Assembly: GCA_023250955.1 (NCBI GenBank)
Contig: JAHEZQ010000022.1
Span: 4,958-68,957, forward strand
Direction of reading: 5' to 3'
Origin: Melioribacter sp.
GTDB lineage: Bacteria > Bacteroidota > Ignavibacteria > Ignavibacteriales > Melioribacteraceae
DNA: 64,000 nt
Below the pieces are notes generated by a model. It worked only from the letters and a program-made list of their open reading frames with translations. It did no database searches and had not been told where the DNA came from. Of this stretch, positions 7,089 through 56,070 are shown in pieces (position 1 is the stretch's first letter; every line of letters starts with the position of its first letter). Both the position numbers and the translations under genes were made by a program.

Positions 7089-7550
7089 ATGGCAAACACA
7101 TATTCACAAATGTACATACAGATTATATTTTCAGTTAAAGGAAGAGTTAATCTAATCCGTAAAGAATTTCGAGATGAATTATACAAATACATTGCCGGTA
7201 TAATTAAAAACGAAAAACAAAAATTACTAGCCATTGGCGGTACCGGTGATCATATACATATTTTTATATCTTTGAATCCTGATAAAAAATTAGCAGATCT
7301 AGTCAGAGTGATAAAATCAAATTCTAGTAAATTCATTAATGAGAAAAAATATATAAGAGGAAAATTTAACTGGCAGGAAGGTTACGGTGCATTTTCATAT
7401 GCGCATTCACAAAAGGAAACTGTGATTAATTATGTTTTGAATCAAGAGAAGCATCACGCTAAAAAGACGTTTAAAGAAGAGTATTATAAATTGCTAAAAC
7501 TTTTTGAAATTGGATTTGATGAAAAATATTTATTTGATTGGATCGATTGA
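7089..7550 (+). CDS. IS200/IS605-family Y1 (HUH) transposase-like protein, RAYT type
   Basis: 153 aa. HUH motif in HIHIFISL and C-terminal Tyr region INYVLNQEKHH. Single gene without tnpB. Followed immediately by a REP-like hairpin array. Confidence 0.8.
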   Translation: MANTYSQMYIQIIFSVKGRVNLIRKEFRDELYKYIAGIIKNEKQKLLAIGGTGDHIHIFISLNPDKKLADLVRVIKSNSSKFINEKKYIRGKFNWQEGYGAFSYAHSQKETVINYVLNQEKHHAKKTFKEEYYKLLKLFEIGFDEKYLFDWID

Positions 7551-7557
7551 ATTTTAT

Positions 7558-7952
7558 GCCGCTCCTACGGAGCTGATGTTTTATATGTTATGTTTTGTTA
7601 TCTAGATTTCGCCCCTACGGGGCTAAATGAATAAAGATTAATTAATCTATAGTCAGTGCCTTTAGGCACGACATATTGGTAGAGCCTTTAGGCACGACAT
7701 ATTGGTAGAGCCTTTAGGCACGACATATTGGTAGTGCCATAGGCATGAAATATTGGTAGTGCCATAGGCATGAAATATTGGTAGAGCCTGTAAGCACGAA
7801 AAATTGGTAATGCCGTAGACACGAAATATTGGTAGTACCGTAAGCACGAAAAATTGGTAGTGTCGTTGACATGAAATATTGGTATTACCGTAGGCACGAC
7901 ATATTGATAATAAGGTAGTCATGGCATTTAAATAGCTCCGTTAGGAGCGGCA
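7558..7952. repeat. REP-like hairpin region downstream of the RAYT-like gene
   Basis: Short GC hairpins GCTCCTACGGAGC (7562-7574), GCCCCTACGGGGC (7611-7623) and GCTCCGTTAGGAGC (7935-7948). The outermost 18-19 nt (7558-7575 tgccgctcctacggagct and 7934-7952 agctccgttaggagcggca) are reverse complements apart from one loop base, and they bracket the tandem array. Confidence 0.8.
7656..7909. repeat. tandem array of ten 25-26 bp hairpin-containing units
   Basis: Unit starts at 7656, 7682, 7708, 7734, 7759, 7784, 7810, 7835, 7860 and 7885. Consensus is GTGCC-(T)TTA/ATA/GTA-GGCAC GA(C/A)ATATTGGTA. Each unit has a 4-5 bp stem and the units abut with no spacers. Confidence 0.9.
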
Positions 7953-9950: not shown

Positions 9951-10144
9951 GTAAACAACGGCGTTGCAACTAAACCGCCGCCCAGAACAGCAATGCAACT
10001 TTGATAAACTAACGCCAATGATTTTATAAATACTTTTTTATTGCAACCTACCTTTAAGAGCAACCAACTTTTACAATGCAACTTTATTACCTAATAAATG
10101 CCGCTATGTTTAAAGCGGACGGCTTGAAGAACTTGTTAGCTGCA
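9951..10144 (-). repeat. attC-like long junction element, copy 1 (3' frame of locus A)
   Basis: In gene orientation: TGCAGCTAAC AAGTTCTTCAAGCCGTCCGCTTTAAACATAGCGGCATTT ... GGGCGGCGGTTTAGTTGCAACGCC GTTGTTTAC. Homologous to 53296-53487 (last 39 nt 34/39 identical) and more distantly to 54786-54959. Confidence 0.75.
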
Positions 10145-10780
10145 TTCACCTTTAGATTTTACTTTTTCATCAAGTAACGCTTTATAAGTCAATTTTTCCT
10201 TTATTAATTCAGCTATTATTTTTTGTGAACTTTCGTTATTTGCGGCAACATTTGATACCTCAAATTCTGCTATTCGTAGCGTTGGATTTAAACCATTTAC
10301 TGATGGTAACAAATCTCTAAAACAATCAAGATATGCCCTTTGAGCTGTTCGTCCACCAACAAAATTAAAATCAACAGTAGTTTTTGATTTTCTATACTTA
10401 TCAGCTTCAACTTTGTGCACATTACAAAGTAATTTGTATTTTTTTATATCGAAAGCCGTAGCCAGTTCATTGGGATAACAATCAAGAGTTTTTAACCGAT
10501 ATGAACTAAAATGCTGATATTCATCAAACTCAAAAATGAAATTATAATCACCACCGAAATATGCATCACAATCAAGTGACACATTTTTTTTGTTCTGATT
10601 TGCTTTTATATCACCTTTCAACGTATCGAATATTTTTGAAATAACTTGGAAATGATGTCCAAAATATTCTTCGCTATGTTTATTTATGAACCAAGGAAAA
10701 GTAATATTCGTTTGTGCTGACACATTTAATACTTTTGCGACTATTTCTGTTATTAATTTTTGTTTATCACCAACTGGCAT
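10136..10780 (-). CDS. hypothetical protein, possible restriction-endonuclease-like fold
   Basis: 214 aa. LDCDAYFGGDYNFIFEFDEYQH resembles the D...E-x-D-x-x-H arrangement of Vsr/DUF559-like nucleases (weak, by eye). GAGG RBS. Same module as the DUF2130-like gene. Confidence 0.35.
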   Translation of the reverse strand: MPVGDKQKLITEIVAKVLNVSAQTNITFPWFINKHSEEYFGHHFQVISKIFDTLKGDIKANQNKKNVSLDCDAYFGGDYNFIFEFDEYQHFSSYRLKTLDCYPNELATAFDIKKYKLLCNVHKVEADKYRKSKTTVDFNFVGGRTAQRAYLDCFRDLLPSVNGLNPTLRIAEFEVSNVAANNESSQKIIAELIKEKLTYKALLDEKVKSKGECS

Positions 10781-10844
10781 ATTACCTCAAAATTTTTAAG
10801 TGAGAATATTTTTTTAATATCACACGTTTACGATAAATTGTAGC

Positions 10845-12104
10845 CTATTCTAATTGTTTATTGCTGTCTTCAAGTTGTTTAACTTCTTGAGTAAGTGAAT
10901 CAATTGCAATTCCATCTACTCGACCCCAAAAATTAATTACACTTTGCTTGGCTTGGAAAATATGCGCTTCTCTTTCTGCAAATCTTTTCAATGATTCTTC
11001 TTTCTCTTTTTGTAGTGATTTATCCATTTTTTTAAATGCATCAAGAATTCCAATTATATGATTTTGAAAATCACTGCTTCTTAGATAGTCGTAAAGCATT
11101 TCCATTTTTGTGCCCTTATCAGTTTGCGAAGCTAAAGCCGAATATTGTTTAATTAATCCATCTCTTAATAGCGTTGTCATTATTTTAATATCATTTAAAT
11201 TACAAACCCATACTCCATCTCTGAAGTGTGTTTCTTTATTATCCGTTGGCATTGTTTGCGAAACTATTACACAAATGTCCGCCTTAACTCGACGACCATC
11301 ATCTTTGAGTTTTGAAACCCAATCTTTTCCAAATGTCTGAGTTTGTTTTCTTTCATATAGTATAATCCCACTTGGCTGACCAACATTATTTTTCACAACT
11401 TGAAGAATATCTGCACCGGTAACACCGGAAGGAACATCTTTTATCTCATCAATAGGAAAGCTATATCTTAGAAAATCTCGAAGCTCGATTTCTTTAACTT
11501 CACCAGATAATTTGTTTGAACCTTGCTCTAGTTTTGTTTGAGCATCTTCAAGTCGTTTGTTTAAATCATCAATTAGTTTATCTCGTTTTTGAAGCTCTGT
11601 CTTGCTCTTTTCAGTCTCGGTCACTTTTATTTTTTCTTTTTCTTGCAAAAGAAGTTCATTGAATTTCTTTTCGGCATCAGCCTCAATCTTATCTTTTAAT
11701 TCAGATTTCTCTCTTTGAACCCTTGCTAGTTCGCCCTTTGTTTTGTTTAGCTCTTTTACTTGTTCTGACTTTTGCTGCAATTCAGTTTCAAGCGCTTTTA
11801 GTTGTTCTGATTTTTCTTCATCAATTTGTTGACGAACAGTTTTTTCGATTTTTGTTTTTTCTATCTTGAGTTTACCTTGAACTTGTTTTTCAACAAGTTC
11901 AGTAAGTTTTTCCTTTTCTTTTTCTAATTCTTTTTTGTCGGATTCAATTTCTTGAAACTTAGATTGAAGTTCTTTCTCTTTTTTGACAATTTTTTTGTCA
12001 TAGTCTTTCTTAATTTGTGTTTCAAGTTGGTCATAAAGAACATCATTAACATTAATTGCAGCACCACATTCTGGACATTTGATAAAATTATCTTTCTCGC
12101 TCAT
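10845..12104 (-). CDS. DUF2130-like protein: CxxC knuckle, long coiled coil, C-terminal PD-(D/E)xK nuclease-like domain
   Basis: 419 aa. N-terminal KCPECG, about 200 aa of K/E-rich heptad-like sequence, then GADILQVV...GIILYERK (D...ExK). Paralog of 53513..54751. Confidence 0.7.
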   Translation of the reverse strand: MSEKDNFIKCPECGAAINVNDVLYDQLETQIKKDYDKKIVKKEKELQSKFQEIESDKKELEKEKEKLTELVEKQVQGKLKIEKTKIEKTVRQQIDEEKSEQLKALETELQQKSEQVKELNKTKGELARVQREKSELKDKIEADAEKKFNELLLQEKEKIKVTETEKSKTELQKRDKLIDDLNKRLEDAQTKLEQGSNKLSGEVKEIELRDFLRYSFPIDEIKDVPSGVTGADILQVVKNNVGQPSGIILYERKQTQTFGKDWVSKLKDDGRRVKADICVIVSQTMPTDNKETHFRDGVWVCNLNDIKIMTTLLRDGLIKQYSALASQTDKGTKMEMLYDYLRSSDFQNHIIGILDAFKKMDKSLQKEKEESLKRFAEREAHIFQAKQSVINFWGRVDGIAIDSLTQEVKQLEDSNKQLE

Positions 12105-12124
12105 AATAATGACTCCAATTTAAT

Positions 12125-12149
12125 TGCAGCTAACGGCTTGTTATAGCGC
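12125..12149. other. short module junction TGCAGCTAAC-GGCTT-GTTATAGCGC
   Basis: The right inverted-repeat arm of the DUF2130-A module and the left arm of the OLD module are separated by only 5 nt. Confidence 0.8.
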
Positions 12150-12152
12150 TAC

Positions 12153-13934
12153 TTAAGAATATATTTTAATTATCTTTTCCTTAAAACCTTGTTTAATAAC
12201 AAAATCATCCGCATCAACTTTCTTCAAAGCAAAGAATGGTTTACTTTTATTAGACTTATCAGTTATTCCAATTTCTTCTTCTATATCATTTTCTAATATG
12301 ATAGTGCTACCGTAATTTTTATCTATTGCATCTTCTATACGTTTGGAAGATTTATCAGCACTTGCAATACCATCTGGTTTTTTATCTGCTTGATGGTCTT
12401 TGTCATAAATTGCTATATAGGGTAAGCGGAATTTATTTAGTAATTCTATATATGGAACAAAAGCGTCTTTACTTCCACATTCAATCAGAGTATAATCATA
12501 CCTAAAAATATTTAGTTGTTTTGCTAAGAAAGGAATAACTGTTTTATCGGAAGGACCTTCAACTAAAACAACCTTTTTTGAGAAAAATAATTCACTTCTA
12601 TCCGGATTAAACCAGTGGACAAGATTAAAATTCTTCTTGTCATCGACATCTGAAAATAAGTCTGTTTTGCATTGAAATATTGTTGTGCCAGCGGTATCAT
12701 TTTCTTTTTTCACAATACAAATTGACTTATACATATTCATATCAATAAATGAACTTGAATGAGTGCAAAGCAATATTTGATTGTCAGAAGCAGAAAGTAA
12801 AACCAACGATGAAAACAACTCTCTTTGTGCTTGCGGATGCAAGTATAACTCTGGTTCTTCAAAAATGAAATACGCGGAATTAGACGTTTGCCTAATAGGA
12901 CGATCTTCCTCTGGCGTGGTAGTAGCATTTTCTCTTTCTTCTCTAATAATATTTGCCCAAGTTTTAATTAACGCAAATATTAGTGCCCTTTGTAAGCCGT
13001 GCCCCTTTCTTGAAATATCTGTTTTAATGCCATCATTTACCCAAACAGAAGTTCCAACTTTGAAAACATCATCAAAATTAGGTGGAGTTATTTCAACATC
13101 TATTTTAGTATTCCAAGATGATAATTCTCGTTCGAGACGTTGTTCAAATAGATTTAGTTCTGGTGGACGAGCTGTGTTTGCATTTCCATTCTCATCAATT
13201 TTATTTAATGAGTTTACCATTGTAACGATTTTATTCTTTGCGTCTTTGTAATCTTGGTTTGTCTCAGACAATTTTTGAATTACAGAAGAATATAATTGGT
13301 TAAAGAGTGTGCTTCCTTTCAGATTCAATTCTTCTGAAGCCGACTTGACGGATGGGATATAAAACACTGAACCAAATATTCCTTTTGCAACATTTTTAAG
13401 ACCCAAAAAGTTGGTAGTCTCTAATTCGTAAGAAAAAGTAATAGCAGTATGATTTTGTTCAATGTATTGGTTTATAGCATTAATAAATATTTCTTTAGTG
13501 ATTCTTCCATCGGCAGGGATTAAATTATATAAAGGTAGCTGACTTGCCGTTTCTCTTTTTAAATAGTTTGAAACATTTTCTTCTTTCAGCCATTCTTCAT
13601 TCGGATTTTGTATGTAACCATTATAAGAAAATTGACCAGATTTATTTGCGGTTTTTCTAACCCTAATTTCATTTTCAGATGTCAGATATTTCTTAAACTG
13701 ATTCTTATCAAAATCATCCAAATTAGAAAATGTTACTTCGACAAATAATTCATCAGAATTTTGGTTGAAATCAAGTTCATCATGTTTGATTTCTCCAAAG
13801 AAATACAACAAGGCGGAAAGTAGATTTGATTTACCGTGATTATTTTGACCGATGAAAATCATTACTTTTTCGTAATCAAGTTCAATCTCTCTTATAGAAC
13901 GCCAATTTTTAATATGAACATTTTTAATAACCAT
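12153..13934 (-). CDS. OLD-family nuclease (ABC-type ATPase fused to Toprim domain), P2 Old-like class 1 architecture
   Basis: 593 aa. Walker A GQNNHGKS, Walker B/D-loop FIFEEPELYLHP, H-loop CTHS. C-terminal Toprim VVLVEGPSDK ... IAIYDKDH. No helicase partner gene. Confidence 0.8.
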   Translation of the reverse strand: MVIKNVHIKNWRSIREIELDYEKVMIFIGQNNHGKSNLLSALLYFFGEIKHDELDFNQNSDELFVEVTFSNLDDFDKNQFKKYLTSENEIRVRKTANKSGQFSYNGYIQNPNEEWLKEENVSNYLKRETASQLPLYNLIPADGRITKEIFINAINQYIEQNHTAITFSYELETTNFLGLKNVAKGIFGSVFYIPSVKSASEELNLKGSTLFNQLYSSVIQKLSETNQDYKDAKNKIVTMVNSLNKIDENGNANTARPPELNLFEQRLERELSSWNTKIDVEITPPNFDDVFKVGTSVWVNDGIKTDISRKGHGLQRALIFALIKTWANIIREERENATTTPEEDRPIRQTSNSAYFIFEEPELYLHPQAQRELFSSLVLLSASDNQILLCTHSSSFIDMNMYKSICIVKKENDTAGTTIFQCKTDLFSDVDDKKNFNLVHWFNPDRSELFFSKKVVLVEGPSDKTVIPFLAKQLNIFRYDYTLIECGSKDAFVPYIELLNKFRLPYIAIYDKDHQADKKPDGIASADKSSKRIEDAIDKNYGSTIILENDIEEEIGITDKSNKSKPFFALKKVDADDFVIKQGFKEKIIKIYS

Positions 13935-13954
13935 TTGTTCCTCAAATTAAATAT

Positions 13955-14181
13955 GCGCTATAACTATTAATTAACCCGCCAAAAAGAAGGCGGACAAGCC
14001 CGCCAACGGATAGCATGGTGGAAGTTGTTTATCTACTTGTAAATTATTTGTTTTTATTTCATTACAAAAAGCAGAAAAGGAAAATCTATTTTCTTTGTTC
14101 TATGTATCTAAACAAAGTACCCCATTTATAGAAGCGTTTTTGGTACTAATTTAACTTAGTGTAAAAGAAAATTTTAGTCAA
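13955..14181 (-). promoter_or_regulatory. conserved 5' frame of locus A: promoter-like boxes plus structured leader
   Basis: Gene orientation: TTGACT (14181-14176), 17 nt, TAAGTT (14158-14153). The leader has stems AGTACC/GGTACT (14116-14147) and CTTTGTT/AACAAAG (14093-14117). It ends GGCGGGTTAATTAATA-GTTATAGCGC. Homologous to 55795-55992. Confidence 0.6.
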
Positions 14182-14422
14182 CCGTTTTCTTGACCCAGCC
14201 AAAAAGATCCGTCAAAAAGATGCCGGACAAGCGGCGGGCAAGCTCACCCGCCCGGATTAACCGGGCACCCTCTCCTTTGTAAGGAGAGGATGGGGTGAGG
14301 TTCTTAGTTGTAAAGACGGGATATATCCCGTTTCTACGTTTTAATTTGTTGTGTTATATCATGGAATAATTGTAATCAAAACAGATATTAAATAAGTTGT
14401 AATAACTAAAATTTAAGAAAAT

Positions 14423-53295: not shown

Positions 53296-53487
53296 GTGGT
53301 AACGACGGGGTTTTTAAGCCGCCGCTCATAACTGCAATGCCGCTTTGAAAAACCTACGCCAATAATTATTTACAAATGTGTTTTGTCCACTATATTCAAA
53401 AAGCAACTAAATTTTGCAGAGCTACTTTATAACAACACAAATGCCGCAATGTTTAAAGCGGACGCCTTGGAAAACTGGTTATACCGC
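53296..53487 (-). repeat. attC-like long junction element, copy 2 (3' frame of locus B)
   Basis: Gene orientation: GCGGTATAAC CAGTTTTCCAAGGCGTCCGCTTTAAACATTGCGGCATTT ... GAGCGGCGGCTTAAAAACCCCGTC GTTACCAC. Homologous to 9951-10144. Confidence 0.75.
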
Positions 53488-53512
53488 CTTCGTATTAAAC
53501 AAGAACAGAAAA

Positions 53513-54751
53513 TCATTTTTCCAATTCTTCGATTCTAATAAATTTACTTTTTTCAGTAAGTAACAACTTAGATTTTTGTTCAATTCTGTTTTGAATTAAG
53601 TCCTTAAGTTTATAGTCAATTATACCAATATCGGAAAATAGATCACGATAAATATGATAACGTTTCTCCCACGTCTTCTTGTGAGATGAAATTTCCACTT
53701 TGAGATCTCTTCCTAGTTCCATTAGCTGACCAGCGACATCATTCATTTTATTGTTATAATCATTGCTTGATAGATAATCATAAACACGTTGAACAGCTTT
53801 TTGTTTTGCCTCGTTTGACATTTTCAGCAATGCTATTTTTACAAGACTTTCACGGAGAGTATAAGTTATTGGTTCAAGACTTACTGGACTTATAACAAAG
53901 ACGGTATTTTCCACAAAGTAATATTGTTTCTTTGAAGGGAATGCATTTGTAACCAATATTGCAAAATCAGCTTGGCGTATTTTGCGAGCTTCTTTAGCTT
54001 GTTCGATATGATTTTTGCTAAATGTTTTTACTTTTTTGCATTCGTAGACAATTTTCCCAATTTCTTTTTCTTGTTCGAGAACTATCTGAATAATGTCGCC
54101 AGCTTTTCCAGGATGTTCAAATTTGTCTTGGGGAAAAAGCTCCTTGAGCTTTGCAAGAAGTTTATCTTCTTCTAATAAACCTTCAATTTGTGGAGTTATA
54201 CCTTTCTCTATTTGCTCTTTCAGTTTTTTGATTTCGTCATTAGCTTGTTCATATTTCTTAGCAGATACTTTGAGACTGTTTTCGAGCTGAGACATTTTGT
54301 TTTTAGTTTTTTTAAGGTCGTCTTGCTGCTTCTTGAATTCTTTTTTCTGAGTCTCAACTCCTTTATCAACTCCTTTTTTAATCTCAGTCTTCAATTTATG
54401 GTTGAAAGATTTTTCTAATTGATTTCGCTGATTTTTCATTTGCAACGAAGCTTTCTTTGCTTGTTCAGTCAAAATGCGTTTAGAATCACGCAATAATTTT
54501 GCTTGTTGTTTCTTAAATTCATTCGCTTGTCCCTTAACTTGATCTTTATAAACTTTTTCTTGCTCTTTAAGTTTCTTCCTCTCGGCTTCCAACTTCTTTT
54601 TATTAAGTTGTTCTTGTGCTTTCATTTTCTTCTGTTCAGCTACAAGATGTTTTATATGTTCTTGTTTGTCTTTCCACAAGCCAAGAGCTTTATCATATTC
54701 AGTTTCTGTCAAAGGTTTTCCACAAACTGGACACTTTAATGTTCGTTCCAT
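53513..54751 (-). CDS. DUF2130-like protein (CxxC knuckle, coiled coil, PD-(D/E)xK-like C-terminal domain), paralog B
   Basis: 412 aa. KCPVCG, long K/E/Q-rich coiled coil, GDIIQIV...GKIVYECK (D...ExK). AAGGAG RBS. Confidence 0.7.
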   Translation of the reverse strand: MERTLKCPVCGKPLTETEYDKALGLWKDKQEHIKHLVAEQKKMKAQEQLNKKKLEAERKKLKEQEKVYKDQVKGQANEFKKQQAKLLRDSKRILTEQAKKASLQMKNQRNQLEKSFNHKLKTEIKKGVDKGVETQKKEFKKQQDDLKKTKNKMSQLENSLKVSAKKYEQANDEIKKLKEQIEKGITPQIEGLLEEDKLLAKLKELFPQDKFEHPGKAGDIIQIVLEQEKEIGKIVYECKKVKTFSKNHIEQAKEARKIRQADFAILVTNAFPSKKQYYFVENTVFVISPVSLEPITYTLRESLVKIALLKMSNEAKQKAVQRVYDYLSSNDYNNKMNDVAGQLMELGRDLKVEISSHKKTWEKRYHIYRDLFSDIGIIDYKLKDLIQNRIEQKSKLLLTEKSKFIRIEELEK

Positions 54752-54785
54752 ATTTAGACTCCTTTACATTTTAGTAAAAACATAT

Positions 54786-54959
54786 GCGGTATAACGGCGT
54801 TACGGTTAAGCGGACGCCACGAAGTGTCGGATACCAACAACATGATTTATTGTTTATAAATTTCATTTGCACAAATGTCGAACAAAAACCAAATCAACTA
54901 AAACTACAAATACCACGACCGACTACAGCGTTCCGCATGAGACGCTTGTTATACACAAA
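54786..54959 (-). repeat. attC-like long junction element, copy 3 (between the two modules of locus B, diverged)
   Basis: Gene orientation: TTTGTGTATAAC AAGCGTCTCATGCGGAACGC ... GGCGTCCGCTTAACCGTAACGCC GTTATACCGC. It shares end motifs and central blocks (caaatgt, caactaaa) with copies 1 and 2. Confidence 0.65.
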
Positions 54960-54964
54960 CTCAA

Positions 54965-55786
54965 TTAACTATTTGCATATTCAACACACTTTGCTCTTAA
55001 TTCTGATATTTCATTAAGTGCTACTGGATTTTTGGCGAGATTAATTAATGGAAGATATTTTCTAATTAGATAACTCTCCATATTCTCAAAATCACCAGCA
55101 AATTCTATCCAGTTAACTACTAAGTTTGTATTAATCCAGTTGATAATGGTGGATTCGTTTCCTTTGTTGAACTTATAATTACGTTTGTTAGAATGGTTTT
55201 TCAATGAACCTTTTATTGGAAGGAAACCTAAAATAGCACCAAGGCTTCTAAAAAACGTTCCGTGACCCCTCGCCCTTAATTCTTGATTTAAAAAACGAGT
55301 ATTTAGACTTTCTGTCGCAATACCAATGTAAATGATATTGTGATTCCGTTTTTTAAGATGTTCGTTAAATGGGGCGGGAATTGAATCTTTATTTTTAATT
55401 CTGATACAATATATTCCAGGAACAGAGGGCACTTTTTCATCAATAGTATTTGCATCAATATAGTTGTCGGAATTAAATAAATATTTTTCCAGCTCTTTTG
55501 AATCAACAGAATTTTGAAAATCAACTTTGGGAGGATGTTCATTGATTAATTGAACAGGTGAATTTTTAGATAATCCAGAAATAACTTTTAAAATGACAAT
55601 ATTTCCTTTGCGATCAAATAAATGTGAATATTTTCTAGTTCTTCCGTGAATTTGAAATGCTGTAATTAAAGAGCCATCTTTCTTTTCATACCACTTACTT
55701 TTATTTAGTAGGTCTGCAATTTTTTGTGTGGTCATCGAGTTTTTATTCTCAGCTAATACTTTTATTATTGCCTCGTGAAGTGTCAT
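54965..55786 (-). CDS. HARE-HTH-like winged-helix domain fused to GIY-YIG-like nuclease domain
   Basis: 273 aa from ATG 55786 (RBS AAGGAAG); see the rejected 55858 start. N-terminus MTLHEAIIKVLAENKNSMTTQKIADLL...HLFDRKGNIVIL resembles HARE-HTH. C-terminus VPGIYCIRI...NIIYIGIA...R...E...N resembles GIY-YIG. Confidence 0.6.
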   Translation of the reverse strand: MTLHEAIIKVLAENKNSMTTQKIADLLNKSKWYEKKDGSLITAFQIHGRTRKYSHLFDRKGNIVILKVISGLSKNSPVQLINEHPPKVDFQNSVDSKELEKYLFNSDNYIDANTIDEKVPSVPGIYCIRIKNKDSIPAPFNEHLKKRNHNIIYIGIATESLNTRFLNQELRARGHGTFFRSLGAILGFLPIKGSLKNHSNKRNYKFNKGNESTIINWINTNLVVNWIEFAGDFENMESYLIRKYLPLINLAKNPVALNEISELRAKCVEYANS

Positions 55787-55794
55787 ATTCTTCC

Positions 55795-55992
55795 TTTGTG
55801 TATAACTATTAATTAGCCCGCAGCAGACTTCAACTCTTGGAATGTTATCTACCAACATTTATTTTGTTTTAATTAATTTGCAGACAGAAAAGGAAATCTA
55901 TTTTCTTTGTTCATATCTTCAAACAAAGTACCCCAATTATAGAAGCATTTTTGGTACTATCTCAACTTAGCTTAAAAGGAAATTGATGTCAA
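55795..55992 (-). promoter_or_regulatory. conserved 5' frame of locus B: promoter-like boxes plus structured leader
   Basis: Gene orientation: TTGACA (55992-55987), 17 nt, TAAGTT (55969-55964). Same two stems as in locus A. It ends GCGGGCTAATTAATA-GTTATACACAAA. Confidence 0.6.
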
Positions 55993-56070
55993 TACTTAGT
56001 TTACAGTAGACAGTTATCAGTAAACAGTTGCAGTTTTAATACTGCCAACTGTAAACTGCATACTGCAAAC

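What the first reader, a model, noticed from the sequence alone, without database searches (positions are those of the whole stretch)
10135..13964. Every gene module is bracketed by a perfect inverted repeat with shared GTTA...TAAC ends and module-specific inner bases
On the + strand, GTTAGCTGCA (10135-10144) and TGCAGCTAAC (12125-12134) bracket DUF2130-A plus the 214-aa gene. GTTATAGCGC (12140-12149) and GCGCTATAAC (13955-13964) bracket the OLD gene. Locus B follows the same rule. GTTATACCGC (53478-53487) and GCGGTATAAC (54786-54795) bracket DUF2130-B. GTTATACACAAA (54948-54959) and TTTGTGTATAAC (55795-55806) bracket the GIY-YIG-like gene. That is four modules out of four. The inner 4-6 bases differ between modules, yet each matches its own partner 0.8-2 kb away. 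The chance expectation for those roughly 20 specific bases at aligned positions is of order 4^-20. This is what results if each module once existed as a circle carrying a palindromic site (NNNNTAAC-spacer-GTTANNNN) and integrated by crossover inside the spacer. Integron cassettes follow the same logic: the inverse core RYYYAAC at a cassette's end is complementary to the GTTRRRY at its start. Caveats: GTTATAC deviates from GTTRRRY, and no integrase lies in the window.
Basis: seen in the sequence. Interest (0 to 1): 0.85.

Follow-up and report, generated by a model that had tools for sequence, protein, structure and literature searches.

The report
Integron gene cassettes without their integrase
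The private inverted repeats are the two halves of integron attC recombination sites, so these are ordinary integron gene cassettes, mostly anti-phage genes, in two integrase-less arrays in the chromosome of an uncultured Melioribacteraceae bacterium.

Summary
All four GTTA…/…TAAC pairs are at the stated coordinates and each brackets one module. The signal is positional and replicated. Own-arm complementarity is 10-13 nt, against a mean of 6.0 for foreign arms, and at least nine further cassettes in related genomes follow the same rule.

The arms are the R″ and R′ boxes of canonical integron attC sites. The sites have a 5-nt unpaired spacer and an extra-helical C at top-strand position 16 in all 11 sites. 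A covariance model trained on them finds the textbook aadA1 attC of plasmid R100 exactly.

The OLD cassette recurs arm-to-arm at 95% identity in a genome whose galK is only 74% identical. That copy has a full attC, so the window's 5-nt spacer is a deletion stump.

Both loci begin with a shared promoter/attI-like platform. In one relative that platform holds the C-terminal stump of an integron integrase. A near-complete intI that passes TIGR02249 exists in the lineage.

The window encodes no integrase, so these are CALIN-type arrays. This is a new member of a known kind, of moderate-to-low interest.

The parts
13965..14185 (-). Platform A. On the cassette-sense (minus) strand it holds promoter-like boxes (TTGACT-N17-TAAGTT, TTAAAT-N18-TATAAA), a CTTTGTT…AACAAAG hairpin, a terminator-like hairpin (14004-13989) and the attI-like junction …GGCGGGTTAATTAATA|GTTA.
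   Evidence: It is 80-90% identical to platform B and to copies at the same site in L002, L003, L022, L084, L086 and L088, and at other sites in L082 and L087. In L084 the equivalent stretch contains an integron-integrase C-terminal stump.
12134..13963 (-). Cassette A1: the OLD-family ATPase/TOPRIM nuclease gene (12153-13934) with private arms GTTATAGCGC (13964-13955 in sense direction) and GCGCTATAAC (12149-12140). Its attC is reduced to the stump AAGCC+G (12139-12134).
   Evidence: Pfam AAA_15 plus OLD-like_TOPRIM, and PADLOC Old at 1e-71. The arm-to-arm 1825 nt is 94.8% identical to L089, 92.1% to L092 and 88.7% to L094, all in unrelated contexts. L089 has identical arms and a full attC that begins TAAC-AAGCC-GCTCAAC.
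9959..12133 (-). Cassette A2: a two-gene cassette holding DUF2130-A (10845-12104) and a DUF7255 protein (10136-10780). Its arms are GTTAGCTGCA and TGCAGCTAAC. The stop codon of the second gene is the TAA of R″.
   Evidence: There is no TAAC/GTTA junction between the two genes.
9953..10141 (-). attC of cassette A2 (189 nt, R″ AGCTAAC to R′ GTTGTTT): TAAC-AAGTT-CTT[C]AAGCCG[T]CCGC … GCGGCGGTTTAG-TTGCAACGCC-GTTG.
   Evidence: Profile hit at 9991-9957 on the minus strand, E = 2.5e-6. Register table. Reconstructed circular form folds with a closed R box, z = -3.0. Member of the alignment behind model R1.
55807..55998 (-). Platform B: promoter-like TTGAGA-N18-TATAAT (55965-55936) reading into the cassettes, a hairpin, and the attI-like junction …GCGGGCTAATTAATA|GTTA.
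   Evidence: The promoter scan scores it 11 of 12.
54795..55805 (-). Cassette B1: a GIY-YIG nuclease with a HARE-HTH domain (gene 54965-55786; public gene calls give 273 aa). Its arms are GTTATACACAAA and TTTGTGTATAAC.
   Evidence: Pfam GIY_YIG_2 at 3.7e-34. Gene length.
54789..54954 (-). attC of cassette B1 (166 nt): TAAC-AAGCG-TCT[C]ATGCGGA[A]CGC … GGCGTCCGCTTAA-CCGTAACGCC-GTTA.
   Evidence: Profile hit at 54825-54792, E = 4e-5. Register. Fold z = -4.3. A homologous site exists in L003.
53303..54794 (-). Cassette B2: DUF2130-B (53513-54751), only 25% identical to DUF2130-A. Its arms are GTTATACCGC and GCGGTATAAC.
53297..53484 (-). attC of cassette B2 (188 nt): TAAC-CAGTT-TTC[C]AAGGCG[T]CCGC … GCGGCGGCTTAA-AAACCCCGTC-GTTA. 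It is the last site of array B.
   Evidence: Profile hit at 53336-53300, E = 2.8e-6. Register. The fold shows an R stem, a spacer and a bulged L stem, z = -3.8.

Best explanation
The two loci are short chromosomal integron cassette arrays that have lost their integrase (CALIN-type). They should be read on the minus strand. Each array starts with a conserved platform (promoter-like region plus an attI-like junction …TTAATTAATA|GTTA) and then holds two cassettes.

Each cassette is a promoter-proximal gene or gene pair followed by its own attC site. When a cassette is excised it is a circle with one complete attC. Folded as a single (bottom) strand, that attC is a hairpin whose R″ (…TAAC) and R′ (GTTA…) boxes pair. 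An integron integrase cuts between G and TT of R′ and joins the circle into attI or another attC. In the linear array the TTA-nnnnnn part of R′ then lies at the cassette's 5′ start, while R″ and the rest of the attC lie at its 3′ end.

That split is why each module is bracketed by a private inverted repeat with shared GTTA/TAAC. The private bases are complementary because the hairpin stem must pair, not because a protein reads them.

Shown: the anatomy, the identity of the sites as attC, the mobility of a cassette as an arm-to-arm unit, and the existence of integron integrase and an integrase stump in the lineage.

Inferred: that an integrase acting in trans, or one since lost, placed these particular cassettes; and that the platform promoter drives their expression.
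For: 1. attC anatomy. All 11 full-length spacers of the lineage have R″ xxxTAAC, a 5-nt spacer, then xT[C]AAr with the unpaired C at top-strand position 16 (bottom-strand G16). This is the same register as the R100 aadA1 attC, GTT[C]AAG. A second or third unpaired base lies at position 20/23/24, and the 3′ arm reads GCGGCGGCTTAr-spacer-GTTA. L093 shows G16/T20/T24, as described for VCR2 in PMC5027507.

2. Named structure. It pairs in 77% of cells, against 27-44% when partners are slid by 1-3 columns.

3. Reciprocal model test. Covariance model R1, built only from nine of these sites, finds the aadA1 attC of R100 at exactly 2601-2660 on the correct strand, aligned end to end (26.4 bits, E = 5.6e-6).

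4. Same site, different cassettes. Close relatives have the same platform and flanks but different genes, each with its own arms of 8-13 nt.

5. Same cassette, different sites. The OLD cassette is 94.8% identical over exactly the 1825 nt from arm to arm in L089, whose galK is 74% identical. It is 92.1% identical in L092, whose galK is 73% identical.

6. Crossover point. In L088 the first-cassette junction is …AATAA|TTAGGTGTATT. Only the base before TT differs, and the cassette's TTAGGTGTATT still matches its far arm.

7. Integrase. L096/L097 encode a protein that scores 425.6 bits on TIGR02249 'integron integrase' (cut-off 265). It is 45% identical to IntI1 and has the IntI-specific insertion. 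L084 has a 25-aa C-terminal stump, 88% identical to it, inside the platform and co-directional with the cassettes.

8. Literature. Complete integrons are already reported in Ignavibacteriae (PMC9024848). CALIN elements are defined in PMC4889954.
Against: No integron integrase is encoded in the window (Pfam scans of all ORFs of 100 aa or more) or within 10 kb beyond its right end. The rest of the source genome could not be searched.

The only near-complete intI found in the lineage carries one in-frame stop and comes from a more distant relative, about 67% nucleotide identity in tilS.

The sites are 166-222 nt, and one is about 337 nt. That is longer than the 57-141 bp usually quoted (PMC5027507).

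GTTATAC and GTTAGCT do not fit GTTRRRY.

Full-length spacers folded alone are not more stable than shuffles, and RNAalifold on five full-length sites did not recover the end-to-end pairing.

Covariation support is weak because the sites are related.

Platform A has a terminator-like hairpin between the promoter core and the first cassette, so expression from the platform is uncertain.
Confidence: 0.9

Rival explanations
1. The reader's literal model, or a Xer/dif-module-like system. Each junction is a double-stranded site made of two inverted recombinase-binding arms around a short central region, and modules integrate by a crossover inside that spacer.
For: The locus A junction TGCAGCTAAC-GGCTT-GTTATAGCGC looks like two 10-bp arms around a 5-bp core.
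Against: This is the only short junction, and it is a deletion derivative. The same OLD cassette in L089 and L092 is followed by a full spacer of about 190-240 nt that begins TAAC-AAGCC-G…. The other junctions are 166-337 nt. The arm sequences are private, whereas a sequence-reading recombinase needs conserved arms. The spacer stays with the upstream cassette. The L088 junction places the exchange at G|TT.
Confidence: 0.03
2. Each module is a small transposon or MITE-like element, and the arms are its terminal inverted repeats.
For: Inverted repeats lie at both ends of mobile gene-carrying units.
Against: The modules encode no transposase. There are no target-site duplications. Terminal repeats of one transposon family would be shared, but here only GTTA is shared and the rest is private. 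The internal spacer has attC anatomy, and a model built on it finds a textbook attC.
Confidence: 0.01
3. A single-strand hairpin system run by the nearby IS200-like Y1 (RAYT-type) transposase at 7089-7550 moves the modules.
For: A Y1_Tnp gene lies about 2.5 kb from locus A. Y1 transposases act on DNA hairpins.
Against: It is not near locus B, nor near the OLD cassettes in L089, L092, L093 or L094. Its own neighbouring repeats at 7648-7934 have an unrelated sequence. The sites match integron attC in register, and an IntI stump lies in the platform.
Confidence: 0.01
4. The cassettes are genuine integron cassettes, but the differences between strains at site A arise mainly by homologous recombination through the conserved platform and flanks after DNA uptake, not by site-specific recombination in these genomes. 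On this view the arrays are fossils.
For: No integrase is present in the window. The platform and flanks are 85-93% identical between relatives, which gives ample homology. Several attC sites and arms have decayed (L002, L084, L086, L092, L094). The attC of the OLD cassette is truncated. Transformation-driven cassette shuffling is described in PMC12614218.
Against: This explains replacement of whole arrays. It does not explain the same OLD cassette appearing at four unrelated sites with intact arms, which requires site-specific insertion at some point.
Confidence: 0.3

Closest known systems
CALIN elements (clusters of attC sites lacking an integron integrase; Cury et al. 2016, PMC4889954) and sedentary chromosomal integrons
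   Same: There are two or more attC sites in one orientation, each following a co-oriented and mostly promoterless gene. No intI lies nearby. The cargo is not antibiotic resistance. attC sites within the lineage resemble each other, as in chromosomal integrons.
   Different: Each array keeps a conserved upstream promoter/attI-like platform. That platform recurs at several chromosomal sites, two of them in this window, and is conserved across species at one site. The arrays are very short, with two cassettes each.
Class 1 integron cassette, for example aadA1 and its attC in In2 on plasmid R100
   Same: It has the same R″-spacer-L″…L′-spacer-R′ layout. The unpaired base sits at the same position 16 in T[C]AAG. 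The cassette's first bases complement its inverse core. Model R1 finds this site at E = 5.6e-6.
   Different: The R100 site is 60 nt with a 4-nt terminal loop, whereas these sites are 166-222 nt (one about 337 nt) with long terminal structures. Here the private R stem is 10-13 bp rather than about 7. In R100 intI1 is adjacent and divergent, whereas the L084 stump is co-directional with the cassettes.
Integron cassettes encoding anti-phage defence ('biobanks' of defence systems in chromosomal integrons; bioRxiv 10.1101/2024.07.02.601686; PMC12614218)
   Same: The cargo is dominated by compact defence genes: OLD, GIY-YIG and DUF2130 in the window; bSEFIR, TIR/ThsB-like, DrmC-like PLD nuclease, PDC-S45 and PDC-S05 in relatives.
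   Different: Those studies concern large Vibrio-type arrays with an integrase. These are two-cassette, integrase-less arrays in Ignavibacteriota.
Isolated cassettes inserted at genomic attG sites (SALIN; Loot et al., bioRxiv 10.1101/2022.09.11.507474)
   Same: Single OLD cassettes sit in otherwise ordinary chromosomal neighbourhoods in L089 and L094.
   Different: Most insertions here follow a recognisable …TAATTAATA|GTTA junction (a diverged form in L089), which suggests a preferred attI-like site rather than dispersed attG sites.

Membership tests
Integron attC recombination site | R″ and R′ boxes with the conserved AAC / GTT triplets at the two ends of the site | tested here: met
   TAAC…GTTA is present at every full site. 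The four R-box pairs hold in 100% of cells. One terminal site reads GTTG (wA_last).
Integron attC recombination site | Extended consensus RYYYAAC / GTTRRRY | tested here: not met
   The sites read GTATAAC, AGCTAAC or CTATAAC, with GTTATAC or GTTAGCT at the other end. PMC5027507 states that only the AAC triplet is conserved among all sites, so this is a weak criterion.
Integron attC recombination site | Unpaired central spacer of 5-6 nt between the R and L boxes | tested here: met
   A 5-nt spacer (mAGyy) lies on the 5′ arm in all 11 sites. The 3′ arm spacer is 6-10 nt.
Integron attC recombination site | Extra-helical bases: bottom-strand G at position 16 and a further one at 23/24 (sometimes also 20), with a 6-bp stem between the first and last | tested here: met
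   The top-strand base at position 16 is C in 11 of 11 sites. The second unpaired base is at position 23 (wA_last, wB_last, L093_2) or 24, with a third at position 20 in L093_1 and L003_a. Six paired positions lie between them. The base at 23 is T on the top strand in the two terminal window sites, which gives A rather than T on the bottom strand.
Integron attC recombination site | Length 57-141 bp | tested here: not met
   The sites are 166-222 nt, one is about 337 nt, and there are also truncated forms of 13-29 nt. The excess length is all in the variable terminal structure, which is known to be long in chromosomal integrons (PMC5027507).
Integron attC recombination site | Recognised by a covariance model of attC sites | tested here: met
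   This was the reciprocal test. Model R1, built from nine of these sites, finds the R100 aadA1 attC exactly (26.4 bits, E = 5.6e-6). IntegronFinder's own model was not available. Rfam holds no matching family.
Integron gene cassette | The unit of mobility is the gene plus its attC, bounded at G|TT, and is found in different arrays or sites | tested here: met
   The OLD cassette is 88.7-94.8% identical over exactly arm-to-arm in four unrelated contexts, while housekeeping galK is 73-74% identical. The L088 junction supports G|TT.
Integron gene cassette | Excision as a circle and integrase-dependent re-insertion | not testable with these tools
   This needs read-level data or experiments.
Complete integron | An integron integrase (IntI, with the specific insertion) adjacent to attI and the array | tested here: not met
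   There is no Phage_integrase domain in any window ORF of 100 aa or more and none within 10 kb to the right. In relatives there is a stump in the L084 platform and a TIGR02249-positive intI with one stop in L096/L097.
CALIN (cluster of attC sites lacking integrase) | At least two attC sites on one strand, within 4 kb of each other, with no intI nearby | tested here: met
   Locus B has two full attC sites 1.5 kb apart. Locus A has one full site plus one truncated site. All are on the minus strand, and there is no intI.
Xer/dif modules | Conserved 11-bp XerC and XerD arms around a 6-bp core at every module boundary | tested here: not met
   The arms are private beyond GTTA(TA). Own-arm complementarity is 10-13 nt, against a mean of 6.0 for foreign arms. 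The spacers are 166 nt or more, except for one deletion stump.

The most novel reading that the evidence does not exclude
A 'distributed' integron. Several integrase-less promoter-plus-attI platforms sit at fixed chromosomal sites, two of them within this 64-kb window, with others in L082 and L087. The one next to galK is conserved across species. Their first slots are repeatedly refilled, mostly with anti-phage genes, by a single integron integrase acting in trans from elsewhere in the genome or from a transient element. The attC sites involved have unusually long terminal structures (166-337 nt) and 10-13-bp R stems.
Probability: 0.25. Interest if true: 0.55.

Novelty: new member of a known kind. 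Interest (0 to 1): 0.3.

Why it matters
The finding explains a striking sequence pattern fully through a textbook mechanism, so it should not be carried forward as a candidate new recombination system.

It still adds something. It documents integron cassettes and integrase-less arrays in Melioribacteraceae (Ignavibacteriota), a phylum in which integrons are barely described.

It shows that a fixed chromosomal slot next to galK holds a different defence gene in each relative: OLD, bSEFIR, TIR, PLD nuclease or protease. This fits the recent view of integrons as stores of anti-phage genes.

It also flags DUF2130 (alone or with DUF7255) and a GIY-YIG/HARE-HTH protein as cassette-borne candidates for defence functions.

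The repeated, conserved, integrase-less platform raises the question of whether attI sites can be used in trans.

Tried and rejected
- **Exact-match scan for the left frame.** A scan of the reference-genome collection found nothing, so the source species is not represented there.
- **Folding full-length spacers alone.** This gave z-scores of -0.5 to +0.65, no signal.
- **RNAalifold on five full-length sites.** It returned only local helices, not the end-to-end pairing. The long terminal structure masks the R and L stems, which became clear only after trimming.
- **Rfam.** The gathering-threshold search found only one tRNA.
It is not discriminating: 2.4 pairs expected against 6 observed.
- **Integrase in or near the window.** None was found.
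- **Short-peptide homology searches.** These failed twice on parameter limits before a padded query worked.
- **Other integrase stumps.** A tblastn search with the lineage IntI found none in the window's platforms or in the other relatives.
- **Alternative mechanisms.** Xer/dif-like sites, transposon terminal repeats and the neighbouring Y1 transposase were considered and rejected (see the rival explanations).

Full report
**Observation**

Each brackets one module, and all module genes lie on the minus strand:

| Module | Genes | Coordinates |
|---|---|---|
| A2 | DUF2130-A plus a DUF7255 protein | 10845-12104 and 10136-10780 |
| A1 | OLD-family nuclease | 12153-13934 |
| B2 | DUF2130-B | 53513-54751 |
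| B1 | GIY-YIG/HARE-HTH protein | 54965-55786 |

The flanking genes are housekeeping: a Na+/solute symporter plus a small ORF, and galK, at locus A; AhpC and DUF2461 at locus B.

Perfect GTTA-anchored 10-mer inverted pairs 300-4000 nt apart are expected 2.36 times per 64 kb in Markov-1 simulations. Six are seen, and two of them are evidently chance. What is significant is position and replication. The arms sit exactly at boundaries defined independently by conserved sequence. A cassette's start complements its own end over 10-13 nt, but complements other cassettes' ends over only 6.0 nt on average, with a maximum of 8 across 88 pairings.

**Anatomy**

The two loci share a non-coding frame. On the plus-strand right of each lies a platform of about 200 nt, 80-90% identical between the two loci. 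On the left lies an element of about 185 nt that begins TAAC and ends GTTA when read on the minus strand. The 160-nt sequence between the two modules of locus B is a third TAAC…GTTA element. A profile of the conserved 3′ arm finds exactly these three elements in the window, all on the minus strand.

Read on the minus strand, each locus is: platform, …TTAATTAATA|GTTA, cassette 1, site, cassette 2, site.

**The sites are attC sites**

The count starts at the first base of the 7-nt R″ box. All 11 full-length sites collected from this lineage then show the following:

- TAAC at positions 4-7.
- A 5-nt spacer.
- An xT[C]AAr motif whose C at position 16 has no partner.
- A second unpaired base at position 23 or 24, with a third at position 20 in some sites.
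- A 3′ arm reading GCGGCGGCTTAr, a spacer, then GTTA.

This is the register of the aadA1 attC of plasmid R100: GTCTAAC-AATTC-GTT[C]AAGCCG[A]CGCCGC…GCGGCTTAAC-TCAAGC-GTTAGAT. I fetched that site and confirmed that it lies directly after aadA1 and next to intI1. The register also matches the published definition: R and L boxes, an unpaired central spacer of 5-6 nt, extra-helical G16 and T23/24 (sometimes also position 20) on the bottom strand, a 6-bp stem between them, and a variable terminal structure (PMC5027507).

Three further tests agree:

- The named structure pairs in 77% of cells, against 27-44% when partners are slid by 1-3 columns.
- Reconstructed circular-form sites fold with a 10-12-bp R stem made of the private arms, z = -3.0 to -4.3.
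- A covariance model built only from nine of these sites finds the R100 attC at exactly 2601-2660, on the right strand and end to end (26.4 bits, E = 5.6e-6).

The sites differ from the usual description in two ways. They are longer, at 166-222 nt and one of about 337 nt, against 57-141. They also do not fit RYYYAAC/GTTRRRY beyond the AAC/GTT triplets.

**Cassettes are the mobile unit**

galK identified the organism as a member of the Melioribacteraceae. At the same site between the small ORF and galK, close relatives carry the same platform and the same kind of attC but different genes, each with its own private arms:

| Locus | Arms | Arm length | Bracketed genes |
|---|---|---|---|
| L022 | GTTATACGCTT | 11 nt | 371-aa ORF |
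| L022 | GTTATAAG | 8 nt | toxin-antitoxin-like gene pair |
| L003 | GTTATACAGAA | 11 nt | 245-aa ORF |
| L003 | GTTAGAACACACG | 13 nt, one base lost | 83-aa and 807-aa ORFs |
| L084 | GTTATATGGTAG | 12 nt | 279-aa ORF |
| L086 | GTTATACGTAA | 11 nt | 490-aa ORF |
| L088 | GTTAGGTGTATT | 12 nt, one mismatch | 875-aa ORF |

Some boundaries in L002, L084 and L086 have decayed.

The converse also holds. The OLD cassette is found in four unrelated chromosomal contexts. From arm to arm, 1825 of 1825 nt, it is 94.8% identical in L089, 92.1% in L092 and 88.7% in L094. galK from the same assemblies as L089 and L092 is only 73-74% identical.

L089 has the identical arms GTTATAGCGC/GCGCTATAAC, followed by a full attC that begins TAAC-AAGCC-GCTCAAC. 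The window's GGCTT, which is AAGCC in the sense direction, is therefore the stump of a deleted attC. The OLD and DUF2130-A/DUF7255 cassettes are now fused.

L093 carries a 78%-identical OLD as the last gene of a three-gene cassette with 13-nt arms. A second cassette there has 11-nt arms.

**Crossover point**

In L088 the platform/cassette junction reads …AATAA|TTAGGTGTATT. Only the base before TT differs from the usual G, and the TTAGGTGTATT still complements the cassette's far arm. The attC sequence also co-varies with the cassette it follows, not with the cassette it precedes. Both observations fit exchange at G|TT of R′, as in integrons. They do not fit a crossover inside the spacer.

**Integrase**

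No window ORF of 100 aa or more has a Phage_integrase domain. None is called within 10 kb beyond the right edge of the window in the source contig.

IntI1 was used as a probe against 1.49 Mb of fetched Ignavibacteriota DNA and gave one hit. It lies inside the L084 platform, between the promoter core and the first cassette, and reads toward the cassettes: …EVVLTMIYTHVLKTVMGVKSPLDSIL**.

The only database relative of that peptide (P0241) led to L096 and L097. There, a 322-aa reading frame with one in-frame stop scores 425.6 bits on TIGR02249 'integron integrase' (cut-off 265). It is 45% identical to IntI1, has the IntI-specific insertion ALDKKYINASKEFGWQYVFP, and matches the L084 stump at 88%.

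The platform is therefore best read as the remains of an integron whose intI lay between its promoter and attI, co-directional with the cassettes. Platforms A and B share the same architecture. This suggests that an already integrase-less platform was copied.

**Comparison with known systems and verdict**

Complete integrons have been reported in Ignavibacteriae (PMC9024848). Integrase-less attC clusters (CALIN) and isolated cassettes are described classes (PMC4889954; bioRxiv 10.1101/2022.09.11.507474). Defence genes are known as integron cargo (bioRxiv 10.1101/2024.07.02.601686). The cargo here fits: OLD, bSEFIR, TIR/ThsB-like, DrmC-like PLD, PDC-S45 and PDC-S05 in the first slot of site A in different relatives.

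The finding is therefore real, neat and fully explained by a known mechanism. It is a new member of a known kind.

The less ordinary aspects are:

- the conserved integrase-less platform at several sites;
- the long attC sites with 10-13-bp R stems;
- the fused cassette pair in locus A.

Whether the arrays are still serviced in trans or are fossils maintained by homologous exchange could not be decided with these tools.

Noticed in passing
window 7089-7934: An IS200-like Y1 transposase gene (153 aa, Pfam Y1_Tnp 1e-24) is followed directly by about 11 tandem copies of a 25-26-bp unit, each holding a GGCAC…GTGCC palindrome. This looks like a REP-associated tyrosine transposase (RAYT) with its REP cluster. 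An orthologue is present in L084.
   Followed up: partly
window 13989-14004 (minus strand): A terminator-like hairpin (GGCGGGCTTGTCCGCC followed by TTCTTTTT) lies inside platform A, between the promoter-like core and the first cassette. It is also present in L022 and L088 but absent from platform B. It may be the old intI terminator, or it may define a short transcript.
   Followed up: partly
window 14074-14185 and 55880-55998: The platform core holds two conserved palindromes (GTACC-N20-GGTAC, overlapping a TATAAT-like box, and CTTTGTT-N-AACAAAG). Conservation stops exactly at a TTGAC -35-like box. These may be operator sites of the former intI promoter.
   Followed up: no
window 14190-14400; L086 5938-6038: G+C-rich hairpin or MITE-like insertions lie beside or inside the platform. 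The window has CCCTCTCCTTTGTAAGGAGAGG… next to platform A. L086 has a 100-bp insertion with GGGGGTGAGAGAGG terminal repeats inside its platform. Relatives have different small insertions at the same place.
   Followed up: no
L022 3767-4647: A toxin-antitoxin-like two-gene cassette (arms GTTATAAG/CTTATAAC) is preceded by a 28-nt mini site (TAAC-N20-GTTA). It is followed by TAATTATTAAC and a duplicate of the last ~120 nt of the small ORF that ends the array. This suggests an insertion at a secondary site inside that ORF.
   Followed up: partly
L093 6043-6054 compared with window 12125-12134: The sequence after the last attC of the L093 array begins GTTAGCTGCAC. These are the same 10 bases as the private start arm of window cassette A2, although the downstream genes differ (a histidine kinase/LytTR pair in L093).
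   Followed up: no
source contig, about 4.5-7.3 kb beyond the window's right end (gene list only): A BanI-type restriction endonuclease and an N6/N4 methyltransferase lie after FtsH and two small genes. In the relative L096 an integron integrase gene lies after the same conserved tilS-HPRT-FtsH gene run. This may be another variable slot.
   Followed up: partly
window 10136-12104 and 53513-54751: Two DUF2130 proteins that are only 25% identical occur as separate cassettes. One is paired with a DUF7255 protein and one is alone. Each has an N-terminal zinc ribbon and a long coiled coil. Neither matches a PADLOC defence model convincingly, so they are candidates for an undescribed defence function.
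   Followed up: partly
L095 (plasmid R100) 1633-1671, minus strand: Model R1 gives a second, weaker hit (15.6 bits, E about 0.01) that overlaps the start of intI1, with only the R-box ends and spacers aligned. It is probably chance.
   Followed up: no
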